From IMG/VR virus record IMGVR_UViG_2585427777_000013: 31,922 nucleotides of DNA; one strand, written 5' to 3'. The notes below the pieces were generated by a model that had not been told where the DNA came from, did no database searches, and worked only from the letters and a program-made list of their open reading frames with translations. Of this stretch, positions 22,472 to 27,338 are shown one piece after another. The position numbers and the translations under genes were made by a program. Numbering within the stretch: position 1 is the first letter of the stretch; each line of letters starts with the position of its first letter. The stretch comes from a virus (taxonomy: Duplodnaviria > Heunggongvirae > Uroviricota > Caudoviricetes).

Positions 22472-22548
22472 TGGCGCGTTGTACTGGATTCGAACCAGTG
22501 ACCGATTGCTTAGAAGGCAATTGCTCTGTCCGGCTGAGCTAACAACGC
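22472..22548 (-). tRNA. argO: tRNA-Arg, anticodon UCU
   Basis: Hand-folded cloverleaf: acceptor GCGUUGU/ACAACGC, D-arm GCUC..GAGC, anticodon stem AUUGC/GCAAU with loop CUUCUAA, T-arm ACUGG-UUCGAAU-CCAGU, encoded CCA. Confidence 0.85.
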
Positions 22549-22561
22549 AGGATACAGATAA

Positions 22562-22638
22562 TGAACCGCCTTCGGGGACCCGAACTCCGCGCAACCAGCT
22601 TCGAAGGCTGGCGCTCTTTCCTGATGAGCTAATGGCGG
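22562..22638 (-). tRNA. argN: tRNA-like gene, anticodon loop CUUCGAA (UCG, Arg); imperfect, possibly degenerate
   Basis: Perfect D-arm and anticodon arm (CCAGC-CUUCGAA-GCUGG), but an A-A mismatch in the acceptor stem, an A-C mismatch in the T-stem, T-loop UUCGGGU (G at position 58) and UCA instead of CCA at the 3' end. Confidence 0.45.
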
Positions 22639-22645
22639 TATGTGA

Positions 22646-22721
22646 TGGTGGCCCTTGCTGGATTTGAACCAGCGACCTGGCGATTATGAGTCGCTCGCTC
22701 TCACCACTGAGCTAAAGGGCC
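22646..22721 (-). tRNA. ileZ: tRNA with anticodon CAU, most like tRNA-Ile2 (lysidine, reads AUA); Met not excluded
   Basis: Hand-folded cloverleaf closely resembling E. coli ileX: acceptor GGCCCUU/AAGGGCC, anticodon loop CUCAUAA, T-arm GCUGG-UUCAAAU-CCAGC, encoded CCA. Confidence 0.8.
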
Positions 22722-22749: not shown

Positions 22750-23463
22750 TCAATAATCAAGCCCTTGCCTGGATACATATCTGTCTGGCGGGAAGCCATA
22801 ATAGCGGTGAAATACAGAAATAAAGTAGGACCTGCTTGAATAACCGCATTTTTCTGCTATAGCCTGTCCATATCCATGCCGGGAACATAACATATTTACA
22901 GCAACACGCATCCGCTCTTCCAGCAACAAGCGACTGAACATGCCCCCTTCATTTTTCAGTTTTGTCTTTAACAAACTCTCACTCATATGCAACTGTAGAG
23001 CAATCGCACAAAGCGTCCAGCTTGCTGATATATCTGTCTGAATTATCGCCCTGACTTTGGCACTTATGCTGGATAAACATCCACTTAAAAACAATGACAT
23101 CCGTTCATCTGTTTCAAACAGAGACAGGCAGGCCATCATAAGAAACATATCCGTGGCCTCTCCGGAAAATCCCTGGCTGGTAATTAAAGCCGCAGCCAAC
23201 GCAGGATTGTTGGGTTCCAGCAACAGGTAAAGCGGAATGTCAGTCAGACGAGTCCTCGTCAGCTTATGCTGACTTTCCAGATATTGACTTACGACGGATT
23301 CGCTTATATCGACAATTTTAACTTTGCCATAATGCATAAGGAAAAGCTCCCTGATGCATTTGGTGGCCAGAACAACTGAGCCTGGCTTAAGTGACAACGT
23401 ATCCTTTTCAAGAAAAATATTAATTGGGGAGCAAACCATGATAACTGAACAGACAACAGCCAT
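22750..23463 (-). CDS. AraC/XylS-family transcriptional regulator
   Basis: 237 aa; C-terminal AraC-type HTH signature (..LLLEERMRVAVNML..GYGQAIAEKCGYSSRSYFISVFHRYYGFPPDRY); AT-rich; ATG start. Confidence 0.8.
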   Translation of the reverse strand: MAVVCSVIMVCSPINIFLEKDTLSLKPGSVVLATKCIRELFLMHYGKVKIVDISESVVSQYLESQHKLTRTRLTDIPLYLLLEPNNPALAAALITSQGFSGEATDMFLMMACLSLFETDERMSLFLSGCLSSISAKVRAIIQTDISASWTLCAIALQLHMSESLLKTKLKNEGGMFSRLLLEERMRVAVNMLCSRHGYGQAIAEKCGYSSRSYFISVFHRYYGFPPDRYVSRQGLDY

Positions 23464-23596: not shown

Positions 23597-23794
23597 TCAG
23601 GACTGAAGGCGTCTGTAACAACCGCACTGATAGTCTGCCAGACCCACCATAACAAGCTGGGTCAGTATTAACTGGCAGCGTTCGCGTGAAAGGTAAGTAT
23701 TCTGCGCAATCTCCCCGACGGTCGCCGGTTCGGTGACGCTTAATTCATTAAACACCACTCTGGCGGTTTCTGTCATATCCTGCTGTTTTAGCAT
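23597..23794 (-). CDS. Small putative HTH DNA-binding protein
   Basis: About 65 aa from an internal ATG (MLKQQDMTETARVVFNELSVTEPATVGEIAQNTYLSRERCQLILTQL); the longer track ORF begins at a TTG; divergent from the DUF262 gene. Confidence 0.35.
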   Translation of the reverse strand: MLKQQDMTETARVVFNELSVTEPATVGEIAQNTYLSRERCQLILTQLVMVGLADYQCGCYRRLQS

Positions 23795-23913
23795 GTCTTT
23801 TTCCCTTTTCCGGTTAACGTGACACACCAATAACTCTTGTCGAAAAAGCCAGCAAGCTGAAAGACAGGTATTCGCAACCACCAGCACGTTTAACGTACTG
23901 CGCCGTTTTTCGG

Positions 23914-23937
23914 ACACAAAAAACCGCCTGGCGGCGG
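23914..23937 (-). terminator. Weak terminator-like hairpin on the minus strand in the HTH/DUF262 intergenic region
   Basis: Minus-strand CCGCC-gcca-GGCGG followed by TTTTTTTG; stem is only 5 bp. Confidence 0.3.
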
Positions 23938-24047
23938 GTTTAAGCTGTGTGGCGTAGTAACCACTCTTAACACGATATAATATTTTTTGCGTACGCGTTA
24001 TAGTTTTCTTACAATCTATTTCCAACTCCAATTAAAGGAACAGTGAT

Positions 24048-25205
24048 ATGACCACACTCAAAGAACTCAAAGAAGAGCTTGCTCAGATTCAAGATGAAAA
24101 CGCGAAAAATAGAAAAAAAGCTGAAATTGCAGCCTTGGTCACTTCTGCCGACAACGAGATTAGGCTTGCTCAGAGAAATATTGGATACAACGTACGTGAA
24201 TGGACCGTTGAATTAATTGTACAAAAGTATGGCAATAATCTTGAAACTGACAAAAACGAACTTTTTATTCCTGATTATCAACGCGATTACAAATGGGATA
24301 TCAAAACAGCCTCTCGATTCATCGAAAGTATATTATTAGATTTTCCAATCCCGTACCTCTACATCTCCGACGTATTTAATGAAGATCCTGAGTTGGATGG
24401 TCGTGTAGAAATTATTGACGGTTCACAAAGGATTCGCTCAATTTACTACTTTTGGAACAATCAGTTTGAATTGAAAGACTTAAAAGAACTCAAAAGTTTA
24501 GAGGGCTTCAAATTTTCAGATCTTTTGGCTAGCCGCCAGAGGCGATTTTTAAGGGCATCACTAAGATTTATTGAATTGAAAGGTGATGTTGAGGAGCAAC
24601 ATAGAAGAGATTTATTCGAAAGAATAAATTCAGGTGTTAAGAGACTGGAAGCGATGGAGGTTAGACATGGTTCAGATGCGGCCACTTCAATTTTCTATAG
24701 GGATGTTGTGACTCCTTGCTCAACAAATCCACTTTTCGCTAGTCTAGCTCCATTATCAGACCGGAAACGTTCGAATGGCGATCATCGTGAGTTAGTTTTG
24801 AGATTTTTTGCATACTTAAATGATTTAGAAAATTATAAGGGTTATGTCGCTCCTTTTATTGACAATTATCTTAATGTTCAGGCCGAAAGGGTCACACAAC
24901 AAGATGTAGACAAATTTAAACATGATTTTGAAAGCATGCTTGCTTTTGTAGATGCTCATTTCCCTATGGGGTTTAAAAAGACACCAACAAGCAAAACCAC
25001 CCCCCGTGCTAGATACGAAGCCATAGCAGTGGGAACTGCTCTTGCCTTAAAAGCCAATCCACATCTACAGGCTCCGGTTATTCCTGTAGGAGACTGGCTG
25101 TTTGGGGAGGAATTTGAAACCATAGTTACTGCTGATAGTGCCAACAACACCAGCCAACTCAAAAACAGAATATTTTATGTCAAAGATAAATTATTAGGAA
25201 TGTAA
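24048..25205 (+). CDS. DUF262 (ParB/GmrS-like NTPase) domain protein with no recognisable nuclease domain
   Basis: 385 aa; DUF262 hallmarks IPDYQRDYKW and IIDGSQRIRSI, plus ..DLFERINSGVKRLEAMEV..; AAGGAA ribosome-binding site; AT-rich; plus strand, opposite to the phage backbone. Confidence 0.8.
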   Translation: MTTLKELKEELAQIQDENAKNRKKAEIAALVTSADNEIRLAQRNIGYNVREWTVELIVQKYGNNLETDKNELFIPDYQRDYKWDIKTASRFIESILLDFPIPYLYISDVFNEDPELDGRVEIIDGSQRIRSIYYFWNNQFELKDLKELKSLEGFKFSDLLASRQRRFLRASLRFIELKGDVEEQHRRDLFERINSGVKRLEAMEVRHGSDAATSIFYRDVVTPCSTNPLFASLAPLSDRKRSNGDHRELVLRFFAYLNDLENYKGYVAPFIDNYLNVQAERVTQQDVDKFKHDFESMLAFVDAHFPMGFKKTPTSKTTPRARYEAIAVGTALALKANPHLQAPVIPVGDWLFGEEFETIVTADSANNTSQLKNRIFYVKDKLLGM

Positions 25206-25207
25206 CT

Positions 25208-25897
25208 ATGAGTTTGATTGATTTAAGAGATGAATACGAAGAAAGAGCAAGAGATATTATGGAATTGCTTTCTCTTGCGTCATCTTTAGAGGCTCAGACT
25301 CAGCAGTTAGATCAGCAAACGCATAAAGATGAAATAGAATCAAATACCCTTAGGGTTAACATTTTAAAATCATCCGTGCACATGATGCTGTACAATCAGG
25401 TTGAAAACACTGCCAGAGGATGCATTGAGTCAATTTATGACCATTTGCAAGATAATGAAGTAAATTACGCATCACTCAGGGAGAAATTCCAAGTAAATAT
25501 CTTGCACCGTATCATTTCAGATAATGAATCGGGAAAATCTCTTTATCAAAAAATTGGTTCCGATATATCTAAAAGGATCATTTCAGCCTCATTAAACATA
25601 CGTAAAGAATTCAATGGTAATGTTTGCAAGTCTGTATTGCACAAAATAACACAAGCTTACGGAATAACTGTTGCAAACTCACCAGAGTGTAGAAATGGTG
25701 TTGACTTAGATTTACTTAAAGATATCAGAAATGAGCTGGCACATGGAAGTACCAGCTTTTCTAAAAAAGGTCAAATAGACCCTTTAGAAGAAGTCAAATC
25801 GAGGTCAGAAAGAATTGATCTATATTTGCGTTTATTAATCAACTCAACAGAAAATTATATTACCTCTAACGGGTATTTATCCCCTCAACATGTCTGA
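25208..25897 (+). CDS. Predicted HEPN-domain protein (R-x4-H motif), partner of the DUF262 gene
   Basis: 229 aa; C-terminal LKDIRNELAHGSTSF contains R-x4-H; ATG 2 nt after the DUF262 stop with AGGA ribosome-binding site; predicted helical. Confidence 0.6.
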   Translation: MSLIDLRDEYEERARDIMELLSLASSLEAQTQQLDQQTHKDEIESNTLRVNILKSSVHMMLYNQVENTARGCIESIYDHLQDNEVNYASLREKFQVNILHRIISDNESGKSLYQKIGSDISKRIISASLNIRKEFNGNVCKSVLHKITQAYGITVANSPECRNGVDLDLLKDIRNELAHGSTSFSKKGQIDPLEEVKSRSERIDLYLRLLINSTENYITSNGYLSPQHV

Positions 25898-26906
25898 TAA
25901 ATGTTTCCCCTATTATCTGACCAATTATAGGGGGAACAGCATTTCCAATCATTGTCCCCAATTTTTGGAATGAAAAAGGCGTCTCCTTGTCAAGGAATTT
26001 ATAATCCATTGGAAAGGATTGCAAAATCGCAGCTTCACGCAAAGTTATGGCGCGATTTTGCTCAGGATGGCCAAATCGTCCATTTCCATATCCATAACAC
26101 TGGGTAGTTATCGTAGGGCTAGTATCGTCCCAAACCATCCGTCCATAAACGCTTTTATAGGTAGCACCTGAATTCTTTTTATGACAGTCTGCTCTAATTT
26201 CTTCAGGCCAGTCATCCCACGTACCACCAGGTAAAGAATGCATGATTCGTTTAAGATTGATATCCATCAATTTAGGCGAACGATGCAAGGGATCGCTTTC
26301 CAGCTTCTCACCTGCCCCTACTTTTGGCAACCTACCAATAGCATCCTTAACAGTAACTTTACGGCTAACTTTTTTTTGATCAAGGCTGATCGGCCCCAAT
26401 TGGGAACCAATTAGAATTAATCTACGTCTATTTTGAGGTAAGCCATACTCAGAACATCTTACAACGTCGTACCACAAATGATATCCAAGAGTCTTTAATG
26501 CACTAACAAACCCTTCAAAAACCTTATGGTTTCTAAGTTGAGGAACATTCTCCATCGTCACAAGCTCTGGCATTACATCACTTACAAGCCTTTGAAACTC
26601 ATATAACAAACGCCACTTTGTATCGTCTTTACGGCTATTTGGATTACGATACTTGGAAAACGGTTGGCAAGGAGCACATCCAGCAAGCAATCTAATATTT
26701 CCTTCCTTGAACATAGCAGACACATCGCAGGATTGCAGTTCTGTAACTGACTGATTAATGAACTGCGTTAAAGGATTATTGCTCTCAATAGCAAAACGGC
26801 AGGATTCATCAATATCAATACCATGAGAAACCTCAATCCCGGCTTTTTTTAGCCCAAAAGTTAAGCCCCCCGCACCACAAAAAATGTCTACTGCCTGAAT
26901 GTTCAC
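25866..26906 (-). CDS. DNA (cytosine-5)-methyltransferase, no restriction endonuclease gene recognised nearby
   Basis: 346 aa; motif I DIFCGAGG, motif IV GCAPCQPFS, motif VI ENV, motif VIII QNRRR; GTG start with GGAGA ribosome-binding site; 3' end overlaps the HEPN gene 3' end by 32 nt on the opposite strand. Confidence 0.9.
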   Translation of the reverse strand: MNIQAVDIFCGAGGLTFGLKKAGIEVSHGIDIDESCRFAIESNNPLTQFINQSVTELQSCDVSAMFKEGNIRLLAGCAPCQPFSKYRNPNSRKDDTKWRLLYEFQRLVSDVMPELVTMENVPQLRNHKVFEGFVSALKTLGYHLWYDVVRCSEYGLPQNRRRLILIGSQLGPISLDQKKVSRKVTVKDAIGRLPKVGAGEKLESDPLHRSPKLMDINLKRIMHSLPGGTWDDWPEEIRADCHKKNSGATYKSVYGRMVWDDTSPTITTQCYGYGNGRFGHPEQNRAITLREAAILQSFPMDYKFLDKETPFSFQKLGTMIGNAVPPIIGQIIGETFIRHVEGINTR

Positions 26907-26924
26907 AAGATTCTCCGTTACTTT

Positions 26925-26950
26925 ATCCTGGTATTATATACACATAAAAG
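26925..26950 (-). promoter_or_regulatory. Candidate promoter in the 63-nt gap between Q and the methyltransferase (extended -10-like TGTGTATATAAT); possible pR'
   Basis: Minus strand reads ..ctttcccaacttttatgtgTATATAATaccagg..; no convincing -35; position matches where pR' follows Q in lambdoid phages. Confidence 0.25.
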
Positions 26951-26969
26951 TTGGGAAAGTAGAACGATT

Positions 26970-27338
26970 TTACATAGAACTTAAGTCATTGTAGTAAATG
27001 AAAAATGACAAGCAGCCATCAATAAACCCCATTGCTGTTTGCATCTCTTTCCGTATTGTTCCATCTGAACATTTCCGTTTTTTAGCAATAGCGCGTAATG
27101 AGATACCAATAACAAAGTGAGCAATGATCAACTCATACTCTTCGGGTTTATACTTTCGCAACCGAGCCACACAACCGTCTATCATGATACCTTCGTCATC
27201 ATCACACTGGAGACGTGACTTTTTACCGTGTGGTAAAAGCCCCTTGAAGCCTGCTGCTATCGGCTGCCAGTCCACACCACTGTTATCTGCTGCAGCCCAG
27301 GCCCCCCAACGATCTAAAACTTCGTACATATCACGCAT
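26970..27338 (-). CDS. Q: Late-gene antitermination protein Q (Q82/QuuD-type)
   Basis: 122 aa, MRDMYEVLDRWGAWAA..IAAGFKGL..C.DD...I..GC.ARL.K.. resembles DLP12 QuuD as remembered; lies between replication genes and the late region. Confidence 0.7.
   Translation of the reverse strand: MRDMYEVLDRWGAWAAADNSGVDWQPIAAGFKGLLPHGKKSRLQCDDDEGIMIDGCVARLRKYKPEEYELIIAHFVIGISLRAIAKKRKCSDGTIRKEMQTAMGFIDGCLSFFIYYNDLSSM

What the first reader, a model, noticed from the sequence alone, without database searches (positions are those of the whole stretch)
24048..25897. Translationally coupled DUF262 (ParB/GmrS-like) + HEPN two-gene operon: candidate anti-phage defence module carried as prophage cargo
The 385-aa protein shows the DUF262 hallmarks (IPDYQRDYKW, IIDGSQRIRSI) but lacks the DUF1524/HNH nuclease half that GmrSD-type type IV restriction enzymes carry. 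Instead its stop is 2 nt before a 229-aa ORF whose C-terminus carries a HEPN-like R-x4-H motif (IRNELAHG). A DNA-sensing ParB-like NTPase coupled to a predicted HEPN RNase would be an abortive-infection or modification-sensing defence architecture. I cannot place it in a named system from sequence alone. The operon is visibly AT-rich, on the opposite strand to all phage genes, and sits where lambdoid phages carry morons.
Basis: partly seen in the sequence, partly recalled or inferred. Interest (0 to 1): 0.85.

Follow-up and report, generated by a model that had tools for sequence, protein, structure and literature searches.

The report
Methylase-linked DUF262–HEPN defence cassette in prophage
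The two genes are real and really encode a DUF262 NTPase and a HEPN nuclease.

Summary
The window holds a 385-aa DUF262 protein (A, 24048-25205 +) and, 2 nt after its stop, a 229-aa HEPN protein (B, 25208-25897 +). Both lie in an AT-rich insert between the Q antiterminator and the lysis genes of an E. coli lambdoid prophage.

The unit has three genes. A convergent C5 cytosine methyltransferase (M, 25866-26906 -) overlaps the end of B by 32 nt. M accompanies A and B in 34 of 36 scorable lineages, in two gene orders (A-B-<M and M-A-B). These lineages sit in prophages, P2-like and Moraxella phages, plasmids, beside Tn7-like genes and in bare chromosomal sites. All 107 E. coli complete genomes that carry the pair carry M too.

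The trio (MAE_28990 HEPN, ParB/DUF262, DNA methylase) was listed by Anantharaman et al. in 2013. The tested two-gene system PD-T4-2 (DUF262 + HEPN, no methylase) is its nearest named relative.

Most likely this is a restriction-modification-like defence cassette. M marks self DNA, A reads DNA status through its NTPase switch, and B is the RNase effector. That mechanism is inferred, not shown. I rate it a new member of a known kind, of moderate interest.

The parts
23941..24015 (+). Left junction of the insert. It is shared with prophages that lack the cassette and contains a perfect -10 hexamer, TATAAT, at 23976-23981 facing gene A.
   Evidence: This 38-75 nt stretch recurs in 31 E. coli genomes without the cassette. 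In strain EC71 it precedes a different cargo gene, a metallophosphoesterase-NACHT/STAND protein, in the same orientation. Sequence read. The consensus scan did not call a promoter here, so its promoter role is inferred.
24048..25205 (+). Gene A. A 385-aa DUF262 (ParB/GmrS-like) NTPase domain followed by an NsnA-like C-terminal domain. There is no nuclease half.
   Evidence: Pfam GmrSD_N 1.1e-25 over aa 69-206. PADLOC NsnA 5.6e-46 over aa 16-313 and PD-T4-2_A 4.3e-27. The motifs QRDYKW (nt 24279-24296), DGSQR (24417-24431) and FERIN are conserved in 35 of 35 lineage representatives. An AAGGA ribosome-binding site lies at 24035-24039.
25208..25897 (+). Gene B. A 229-aa HEPN protein of the MAE_28990 family and the predicted RNase effector. 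The catalytic motif R174-N-E-L-A-H179 lies at nt 25727-25744.
25866..25897 (.). The 32-nt overlap of the 3' ends of the convergent genes B and M.
   Evidence: The B-to-M spacing, measured between stop-to-stop ORF limits, runs from -52 to +46 nt in almost all A-B-<M loci.
25866..26906 (-). Gene M. A 346-aa C5 cytosine DNA methyltransferase with a GTG start. It is the third member of the cassette and carries all the catalytic motifs.
   Evidence: Pfam DNA_methylase 9.5e-54 and TIGR00675 dcm 6e-35. PADLOC MTase_II 1.6e-87, DrmMII 4e-85 and DruM 4.9e-73. Motifs FCGAG (aa 9-13), PCQ (79-81; nt 26664-26672), ENV (119-121), QNRRR (158-162), REAAILQSFP (290-299) and GNAV (321-324) are present and conserved across lineages.
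26907..26969 (-). The Q-M spacer. It holds TATAAT at 26938-26933 and a GGAG ribosome-binding site at 26916-26913, upstream of the GTG at 26906-26904.
   Evidence: Sequence read. The block conserved in the Salmonella bongori copy, which has no adjacent Q gene, ends at 26946 and so includes the -10 hexamer. Whether this is a promoter of the cassette or the phage late promoter was not settled.
23924..23937 (-). A terminator-like hairpin, CCGCCGCCAGGCGG followed by TTTTTT, just outside the left edge of the cassette. It would stop leftward transcripts that have crossed M and run antisense through B and A.
   Evidence: Function inferred only.
26970..27338 (-). Context gene: the phage Q antiterminator, directly upstream of M.
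   Evidence: Pfam Phage_antitermQ 3.3e-47. Homology to Q genes of prophages without the cassette stops inside the 3' end of Q, about 27003-27022.

Best explanation
This is a self-contained three-gene cassette built like a restriction-modification system. It rides as cargo in the Q-to-lysis slot of an E. coli lambdoid prophage.

Proposed mechanism (inferred):
1. M, a C5 cytosine methyltransferase with its own -10 element, methylates a fixed short motif on the host and prophage DNA and so marks it as self.
2. A combines a DUF262 ParB-like NTPase with an NsnA-type C-terminal domain. Li et al. 2025 infer that this type of domain binds DNA. A surveys DNA and uses its DGxQR nucleotide switch to report DNA that lacks the mark.
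3. B, co-translated with A, is a HEPN RNase. When released or activated by A, it cuts RNA through the R174/H179 site. This stops phage gene expression at the cost of growth arrest or death of the infected cell.

Shown here: the three genes, their domains and intact motifs, their tight linkage in two gene orders across distant bacteria and mobile elements, and their all-or-none inheritance in E. coli.

Inferred: that the cassette defends against phage, that the absence of methylation is the trigger, and that RNA is the target.
For: Domains and motifs. The catalytic motifs of all three proteins are conserved in 35 lineage representatives.

Linkage of M. HEPN-anchored loci were clustered at 70% identity of B into 37 lineages. 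Of these, 25 are A-B-<M, 9 are M-A-B, 2 lack a methylase and 1 is cut off by a contig end.

Independent contexts:
- Prophages of Yersinia, Salmonella bongori and Klebsiella.
- A Pseudoalteromonas locus beside Tn7-like genes.
- Chromosomal sites between housekeeping genes in Photobacterium, Pseudomonas and Vibrio cholerae.
- A Bradyrhizobium locus where B is only 24-25% identical, and Acetobacteraceae.
- A P2-like phage and Moraxella phages.
- Two plasmids.

Inheritance. 107 of 107 E. coli complete genomes with A and B hold all three genes in one uninterrupted piece.

One methylase family. The region of M between motifs VIII and IX stays 50-67% identical in all but one lineage while B falls to about 20%. 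The full length of M matches the PADLOC models of the self-marking methylases of DISARM and Druantia.

Precedents. PD-T4-2 (DUF262 + HEPN) protects against T4 both when cloned and in its native strain. DUF262 acts as an NTPase-coupled DNA-modification sensor in GmrSD, BrxU and SspE. Anantharaman et al. 2013 recorded this same trio.
Against: - No experiment exists on this cassette or on any close homologue in the library searched.
- Two cyanobacterial lineages, a Klebsiella P2-like phage pair and PD-T4-2 itself consist of A and B without an adjacent methylase. The pair therefore does not always need a linked M.
- Characterised DUF262 sensors respond to modified DNA, not unmodified DNA.
- HEPN enzymes cut RNA. 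A restriction-modification system whose effector is an RNase has no characterised precedent that I know of.
- The phage P24B2 copy has a 1-nt frameshift in M while A and B are intact. This could be a sequencing error.
- The target motif of M is unknown. PADLOC models named DrmMII cover methylases with different specificities.
Confidence: 0.5

Rival explanations
1. True restriction with an RNase back-up. A itself nicks or cleaves unmethylated DNA, as some ParB/Srx enzymes do. B is a second-line suicidal RNase that is released only when the first line fails. This is the multi-pronged model of Anantharaman et al.
For: The 2013 survey calls the partner a 'ParB nuclease' and proposes that HEPN domains in restriction-modification contexts act like PrrC. 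DNase and nicking activities of the ParB/Srx superfamily are cited. Several A homologues weakly match a PADLOC Type II REase model (1e-5 to 1e-8).
Against: In the characterised GmrSD, BrxU and SspE systems the DUF262 domain is the NTPase or sensor, and cleavage needs the DUF1524 domain, which is absent here. The window protein itself did not reach the REase_II model at E<=0.1.
Confidence: 0.2
2. Two independent functions that merely sit together. Under this reading A+B is a type IV-like, modification-dependent sensor and RNase, as PD-T4-2 may be against T-even phages. M is then a separate orphan or anti-restriction methylase of the mobile element.
For: DUF262 proteins with known function sense modified DNA. 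A-B pairs exist and work without a methylase.
Against: M is adjacent in 34 of 36 lineages, in two different gene orders, with spacing from overlap to a few tens of nt. In all but one lineage it is the same methylase family. The trio also occurs outside phages. Inheritance is all-or-none in 107 E. coli genomes.
Confidence: 0.12
3. Primarily a selfish addiction module. Loss of the cassette dilutes methylation, A+B then attack the host, and so the prophage, island or plasmid is stabilised. Phage defence would be a side effect.
For: The layout matches type II restriction-modification units, which are known to behave this way (established knowledge). The cassette occurs on prophages, plasmids, beside Tn7-like genes and as small isolated islands.
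Against: This does not exclude defence. Nothing here bears on post-segregational killing.
Confidence: 0.1
4. An epigenetic accessory, not a defence system. A (with B) helps or regulates the methylase, as the ParB-like DndB regulates phosphorothioation and DpdB assists 7-deazaguanine insertion.
For: DndB is described as a ParB-like domain fused to a HEPN domain. DpdB is a ParB-like ATPase needed for DNA modification. PD-T4-2A hits DndB in HHpred.
Against: PD-T4-2 is a proven defence system without any methylase. The invariant catalytic HEPN motif and the fast evolution of B fit an effector in an arms race. Pfam DndB did not match A at E<=0.1.
Confidence: 0.06

Closest known systems
[quoted passage not shown]
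   Same: It has the same three components: a MAE_28990 HEPN with conserved Rx4H, a ParB/DUF262 protein and a DNA methylase. RefSeq already names B a 'MAE_28990/MAE_18760 family HEPN-like nuclease'.
   Different: The 2013 entry is one table line from comparative genomics. It has no system name and no experiment. It does not mention the two gene orders, the single conserved methylase family or carriage in the lambdoid Q-lysis slot.
PD-T4-2 (Vassallo et al. 2022, E. coli ECOR65)
   Same: It pairs a DUF262 protein that lacks DUF1524 with a small HEPN protein of the RiboL-PSP/MAE_28990 group. A matches the PADLOC PD-T4-2_A model at 4.3e-27. Anti-phage activity is proven against T4, and systems selected on T4 generally also protected against T2 and T6.
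   Different: The cloned PD-T4-2 has two genes and no methylase, in a shorter unit of about 1.54 kb. B does not match the PADLOC PD-T4-2_B model. A scores higher on the NsnA model than on PD-T4-2_A. I could not obtain the PD-T4-2 sequences for a direct alignment.
Menshen (NsnABC)
   Same: A resembles NsnA over most of its length: PADLOC NsnA 5.6e-46 for the window protein, and 1e-52 to 1e-61 nearly end to end for homologues. That is a ParB-DUF262 domain plus the C-terminal domain that Li et al. 2025 call ParBDB and infer to bind DNA.
   Different: The cassette has no NsnB ATPase and no NsnC inPIN-nuclease effector. It has a HEPN protein and a methylase instead.
GmrSD / BrxU / SspE (type IV and phosphorothioate-sensing DUF262-DUF1524 enzymes)
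   Same: It has the DUF262 domain with the QRxxxW, DGxQR and FxxxN motifs.
   Different: It has no DUF1524 His-Me nuclease half. It is split into two proteins, it is linked to a methylase, and PADLOC SspE, HEC-05 and HEC-06 matches are weak.
Type II restriction-modification systems, and methylase-marked systems such as DISARM class 2 and Druantia type II
   Same: It is a compact unit with a methylase gene either convergent with or directly upstream of the 'restriction' genes. M matches the PADLOC MTase_II, DrmMII and DruM models over its full length.
   Different: No recognised DNA endonuclease fold is present. The predicted effector is an RNase.
PrrC-EcoprrI and RloC (HEPN anticodon nucleases tied to restriction-modification)
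   Same: These are also HEPN RNases functionally tied to a DNA-modification system and regulated by an NTPase.
   Different: PrrC is one protein with an ABC NTPase, guarded by a complete type Ic restriction-modification system. Here there is no HsdR/S and the NTPase is a ParB-like protein.

Membership tests
MAE_28990 HEPN / ParB / methylase operon (Anantharaman 2013) | HEPN protein of the MAE_28990 family with a conserved Rx4-6H motif | tested here: met
   Pfam PF18737 E=3.8e-16, 60.4 bits against a cut-off of 26.8. RNxLAHG is invariant.
MAE_28990 HEPN / ParB / methylase operon (Anantharaman 2013) | Adjacent ParB-superfamily (DUF262) gene | tested here: met
   Pfam GmrSD_N 1.1e-25 with a 2-nt gap to B. 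A is present in every HEPN-anchored locus.
MAE_28990 HEPN / ParB / methylase operon (Anantharaman 2013) | Adjacent DNA methylase gene | tested here: met
   C5 methyltransferase at 25866-26906, Pfam 9.5e-54. It is linked in 34 of 36 scorable lineages.
HEPN superfamily | Alpha-helical bundle fold of HEPN type | tested here: met
HEPN superfamily | RNase activity from a dimeric composite R/H site | not testable with these tools
   This needs biochemistry or a modelled complex. Only motif conservation is shown here.
PD-T4-2 | DUF262 protein without DUF1524, matching the PD-T4-2_A profile | tested here: met
   PADLOC PD-T4-2_A 4.3e-27 over aa 72-336, although NsnA scores higher.
PD-T4-2 | Partner matching the PD-T4-2_B profile | tested here: not met
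   PADLOC gave no PD-T4-2_B hit even at max_evalue 10. The model looks narrow, because a RiboL-PSP HEPN partner in a Klebsiella phage also fails it. At Pfam level both B proteins hit the RiboL-PSP and MAE_28990 models.
PD-T4-2 | A complete system of two genes with no methylase | tested here: not met
   A methylase is part of the conserved cassette here. PD-T4-2 was cloned as 1.8 kb without one.
Menshen (NsnABC) | NsnA-like protein followed by the NsnB ATPase and an NsnC effector | tested here: not met
   A is NsnA-like, but the next gene is a HEPN protein and no ATPase gene is present.
GmrSD-type type IV restriction enzyme | DUF262 joined to, or paired with, a DUF1524 His-Me nuclease | tested here: not met
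   No DUF1524 match was found in A, B or the neighbouring genes.
Type II restriction-modification system | A methyltransferase plus a DNA endonuclease of the same specificity | tested here: inconclusive
   The methyltransferase is present with all motifs. No recognised endonuclease fold was found. Whether A cuts DNA, and which site M methylates, is unknown.
Anti-phage defence system (functional class) | Protects cells or populations from phage | not testable with these tools
   Support is only by analogy to PD-T4-2 and by location in a cargo slot that holds a STAND-NTPase gene in another prophage.

The most novel reading that the evidence does not exclude
The cassette is a restriction-modification system that has no DNase. 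A would read the absence of 5-methylcytosine at one fixed motif and answer by unleashing a HEPN RNase, so that an epigenetic self-mark is coupled directly to abortive infection. The methylase-less relatives (PD-T4-2 and the cyanobacterial pairs) would then depend on a resident orphan methylase acting in trans, such as Dcm in E. coli K-12. That could explain why PD-T4-2 is tolerated in K-12 and hits the T-even phages, whose cytosines are hypermodified.
Probability: 0.2. Interest if true: 0.8.

Novelty: new member of a known kind. Interest (0 to 1): 0.45.

Why it matters
The cassette is common. It occurs in 107 of 5426 complete E. coli genomes, including ST131 strains. The HEPN family has 1802 clusters at 50% identity in an exhaustive search.

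The version found in this window returns only a partial match in the PADLOC 2.0 library searched: A hits the NsnA and PD-T4-2_A models, and B hits no partner model. Genome surveys that rely on these models may therefore leave it uncalled or give it a partial call.

If the inferred logic holds, the cassette would show how a methylation mark can gate an RNase rather than a DNase. It would also supply the missing self/non-self rule for the PD-T4-2 group. Practically, the prophage would add a 5-methylcytosine pattern to its host's DNA and may bar phages and plasmids from clinically important lineages.

Tried and rejected
- A first AlphaFold2 run for B on a 13-sequence alignment gave an unusable model (pLDDT 59.8, catalytic region below 50). 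A 65-sequence alignment replaced it.
- Sequence searches of the PDB found no relative of A or B.
- PADLOC has no model that matches B. NCBIfam has none for A or B.
- The genome-contig scan returned one locus only. The metagenome scan returned eight, mostly near-identical. Context evidence therefore came mainly from the look-up of encoding contigs, the IMG/VR viral contigs and the annotated collections.
- A megablast of the pair against the phage collection found nothing. Protein-level search was needed.
- A profile comparison of the B family with the RiboL-PSP HEPN of a Klebsiella P2-like phage was not significant. A direct link to PD-T4-2B rests on shared Pfam and HHpred family hits only.
- I tried to infer the target site of M and failed. 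The region between motifs VIII and IX has no informative PDB relative. DrmMII-named methylases have different specificities, CCWGG versus MTCGAK. Source names are generic.
- I tested whether the C-terminal domain of A co-varies with the recognition region of M. Spearman correlation was 0.29, lower than A-C-terminus versus B (0.67). There is no specific signal, because the recognition region of M hardly varies.
- I looked for natural 'M broken, A+B intact' or the reverse as a genetic test. The broken copies in CP184811 and CP184814 sit in assemblies with 6-9 single-base gaps per 3.6 kb, so they are probably errors. The frameshift in M of phage P24B2 is a 1-nt change in a G run and is ambiguous.
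Full report
**1. The observation**

A is 24048-25205 (+), 385 aa, and B is 25208-25897 (+), 229 aa. A ends with TAA at 25203-25205. Two bases later comes the ATG of B, with an AGGA 8 nt upstream inside the end of A.

The quoted peptides are present: IPDYQRDYKW at aa 74-83, IIDGSQRIRSI at aa 122-132 and IRNELAHG at aa 173-180.

Pfam places A in GmrSD_N/DUF262 (E=1.1e-25, aa 69-206) with no DUF1524 half. It places B in HEPN_MAE_28990 (E=3.8e-16, 60.4 bits against a cut-off of 26.8) and more weakly in HEPN_RiboL-PSP (6.7e-8).

The region is AT-rich: G+C is 0.38 for 24016-26969 against 0.53 for the rest of the window. All other convincing long ORFs lie on the minus strand. The neighbours are a phage Q antiterminator (26970-27338 -), three tRNA genes and an AraC-family gene. 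In an identical E. coli copy the flanks also hold holin, lysozyme and terminase genes.

**2.

A 346-aa C5 cytosine DNA methyltransferase, M, lies at 25866-26906 (-), starting with GTG. It converges on B and overlaps it by 32 nt. It matches Pfam DNA_methylase at 9.5e-54 and TIGR00675 at 6e-35, and it carries motifs I, IV (PCQ), VI (ENV), VIII, IX and X.

**3. Is M part of the unit?**

I collected homologous loci in five ways:
- exact-protein look-ups of HEPN and DUF262 homologues
- a genome scan
- a metagenome scan
- an IMG/VR viral-contig scan that gave 77 loci
- protein searches of the phage and plasmid collections

I built profiles of A, B and M from seven loci each and ran them over all ORFs of the 110 loci. 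Clustering B at 70% identity gave 37 lineages. Of these, 25 have A-B followed by a convergent M, 9 have M-A-B on one strand with M ending where A begins, 2 have no methylase (Nostoc and Microcoleus), and 1 is cut by a contig end. A is present in every case.

The trio occurs in many settings:
- lambdoid prophages of Yersinia, Klebsiella and Salmonella bongori
- beside Tn7-like tnsC/D/E genes in Pseudoalteromonas
- between housekeeping genes in Photobacterium, Pseudomonas putida and Vibrio cholerae
- Bradyrhizobium, where B is only 24-25% identical, and Acetobacteraceae
- a P2-like coliphage and nine Moraxella phages
- a Klebsiella plasmid and a Roseomonas plasmid

In E. coli, 107 of 5426 complete genomes carry A and B, and all 107 carry the whole three-gene block in one uninterrupted piece. 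There are two alleles: at least 99% identity in 73 genomes and about 87% in 34. Two gene orders, tight spacing, many unrelated contexts and all-or-none inheritance together make a three-gene functional unit very likely.

**4. One methylase family**

In all but one of the 34 non-window lineages compared, the region of M between motifs VIII and IX aligns over all 106 columns. In C5 methylases this region normally determines the target sequence and varies most. Here it stays 50-83% identical to the window protein (50-67% outside the closest Klebsiella and S. bongori copies). That is as conserved as the catalytic core, which is 42-79% identical.

Over the same set, B falls to 19-30% and the C-terminal half of A to 27-45%. 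So one methylase family, probably with one specificity, travels with A and B. The target site is an inference I could not resolve. Divergence of the C-terminal domain of A tracks B (Spearman 0.67) far more than it tracks M (0.29), which fits A and B working as a complex.

**5. Is B a HEPN enzyme?**

The motif R-N-x-L-A-H-G is invariant in 35 of 35 lineage representatives. R174, L177, H179 and G180 are invariant in a 65-sequence alignment with mean column identity of 36%.

A first structure model on a shallow alignment failed (pLDDT 59.8). With 65 sequences the model is confident (pLDDT 94.3, pTM 0.89) and all-helical.

**6. What A is**

All three DUF262 motifs (QRxxxW, DGxQR, FxxxN) are present and conserved in 35 of 35 lineages. 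The best PADLOC model is NsnA of Menshen (5.6e-46 for the window protein; nearly end to end for homologues). Next is PD-T4-2_A (4.3e-27). SspE, HEC-05 and HEC-06 matches are weak.

Li et al. 2025 describe NsnA as ParB-DUF262 plus a C-terminal domain they name ParBDB. They infer that this domain binds DNA and propose NsnA as a sensor. No nuclease domain was detected in A.

**7. Anatomy and expression (inferred)**

- A has an AAGGA ribosome-binding site and a perfect TATAAT at 23976-23981.
- This -10 lies in a 75-nt junction (23941-24015) that recurs in prophages without the cassette. In strain EC71 it precedes a metallophosphoesterase-NACHT/STAND gene in the same slot and orientation. This looks like a cargo hotspot.
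- M has a TATAAT at 26938-26933 and a GGAG site before its GTG.
- The conserved block in the S. bongori copy spans 23959-26946.
- Homology to Q genes of prophages without the cassette stops inside the 3' end of Q.
- The consensus scan called none of these promoters, so they remain suggestions.

**8. Comparison with what is known**

Anantharaman et al. [quoted passage not shown] By analogy with PrrC, they propose that HEPN RNases tied to restriction-modification systems act as a second, suicidal line of defence.

PD-T4-2 (Vassallo et al. 2022) is annotated 'DUF262, HEPN'. Its B subunit hits both the RiboL-PSP and MAE_28990 models in HHpred. It protects against T4 when cloned as 1.8 kb without a methylase, and deleting it sensitises its native strain.

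Menshen shares only the NsnA-like subunit. GmrSD, BrxU and SspE share only the DUF262 domain.

I found no paper that tests the methylase-linked trio. RefSeq already gives both proteins their family names.

**9. Mechanism**

The best-supported reading is a restriction-modification-like cassette. M marks self DNA. A reads DNA status and switches through NTP binding or hydrolysis. B cuts RNA.

The linkage data argue strongly that M matters to A and B. The direction of the signal (unmethylated DNA as trigger) and the target (RNA) are inferred.

The main caveats are these. Methylase-less A-B pairs exist and work. Known DUF262 sensors respond to modified DNA. The rivals are listed separately: A as the actual DNase with B as back-up, independent modules, an addiction module, and a modification helper like DndB or DpdB.

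**10. Verdict**

The feature is real, ordinary in kind and already catalogued, but it has never been tested experimentally. Its conserved methylase and RNase effector pose a clear, testable question. I rate it a new member of a known kind, with interest 0.45.

Noticed in passing
window 22472-22721 (-): There are three tRNA genes in a row, Arg(tct), Arg(tcg) and Met(cat), downstream of the cassette on the late-gene strand. Stx-type lambdoid phages have a similar tRNA cluster.
   Followed up: no
window 22750-23463 (-): A 237-aa AraC-family regulator lies between the cassette and the tRNAs. Its best NCBIfam matches are YdeO (3.9e-31) and GadX, both below their cut-offs. It is probably a second piece of prophage cargo that could act on host acid-resistance or virulence regulons.
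   Followed up: no
window 23941-24015; L110 2501-2575 (E. coli EC71): The 75-nt left junction of the cassette, including the TATAAT at 23976-23981, recurs in prophages that lack the cassette. In EC71 it precedes a gene of more than 1000 aa with metallophosphoesterase and NACHT/STAND NTPase domains, in the same slot and orientation. This suggests a swap-in cargo hotspot with a shared outward-facing promoter.
   Followed up: partly
window 26052-26399 (M aa 170-285); 34 related loci: The methylase region between motifs VIII and IX is as conserved as the catalytic core, at 50-67% identity outside the closest enteric copies. This holds from E. coli to Bradyrhizobium and Moraxella phages, while the HEPN partner drops to about 20%. 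Locus L106 is the one exception and uses a different methylase.
   Followed up: partly
window 26933-26938 (-) and 23924-23937 (-): The -10 element between the Q stop codon and the methylase start could be the phage late promoter itself. A strong terminator-like hairpin lies just past the far end of the cassette. If so, late transcripts modified by Q would run antisense through B and A during lytic growth.
   Followed up: no
L029 1997-3041 (phage P24B2) vs L083: The methylase of the P2-like phage P24B2 is split by a 1-nt change in a run of G. It is otherwise 99.9% identical to an intact IMG/VR copy, and A and B are intact. This is either a sequencing error or a natural methylase-off variant.
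   Followed up: partly
phage records H42-H50 (e.g. Escherichia phage Phi1, 116547-116864): Large T4-like coliphages (Phi1, kvi, MIZ2, MIZ3, MIZ6, Whisky) encode a segment about 31% identical to the DUF262 core of A (aa 75-191). These would be phage-borne DUF262 proteins of unknown role.
   Followed up: no
L112 2360-4263 (Klebsiella phage ST16-OXA48phi5.4): A P2-like Klebsiella phage carries a DUF262 gene and a RiboL-PSP HEPN gene between its tail genes, with no methylase. The layout resembles PD-T4-2. Its HEPN protein also fails the PADLOC PD-T4-2_B model.
   Followed up: partly
L113-L115 (E. coli CP184814, CP184811): Copies of the cassette with apparently broken A, B and M come from assemblies with 6-9 single-base gaps per 3.6 kb. 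The truncated '192-aa HEPN' proteins in the databases are therefore probably assembly artefacts.
   Followed up: yes
window 23597-24031 (-): This 144-aa TTG-initiated ORF overlaps terminator-like hairpins. In an identical genome RefSeq annotates only a 66-aa hypothetical protein here. The long form is probably not a gene.
   Followed up: no
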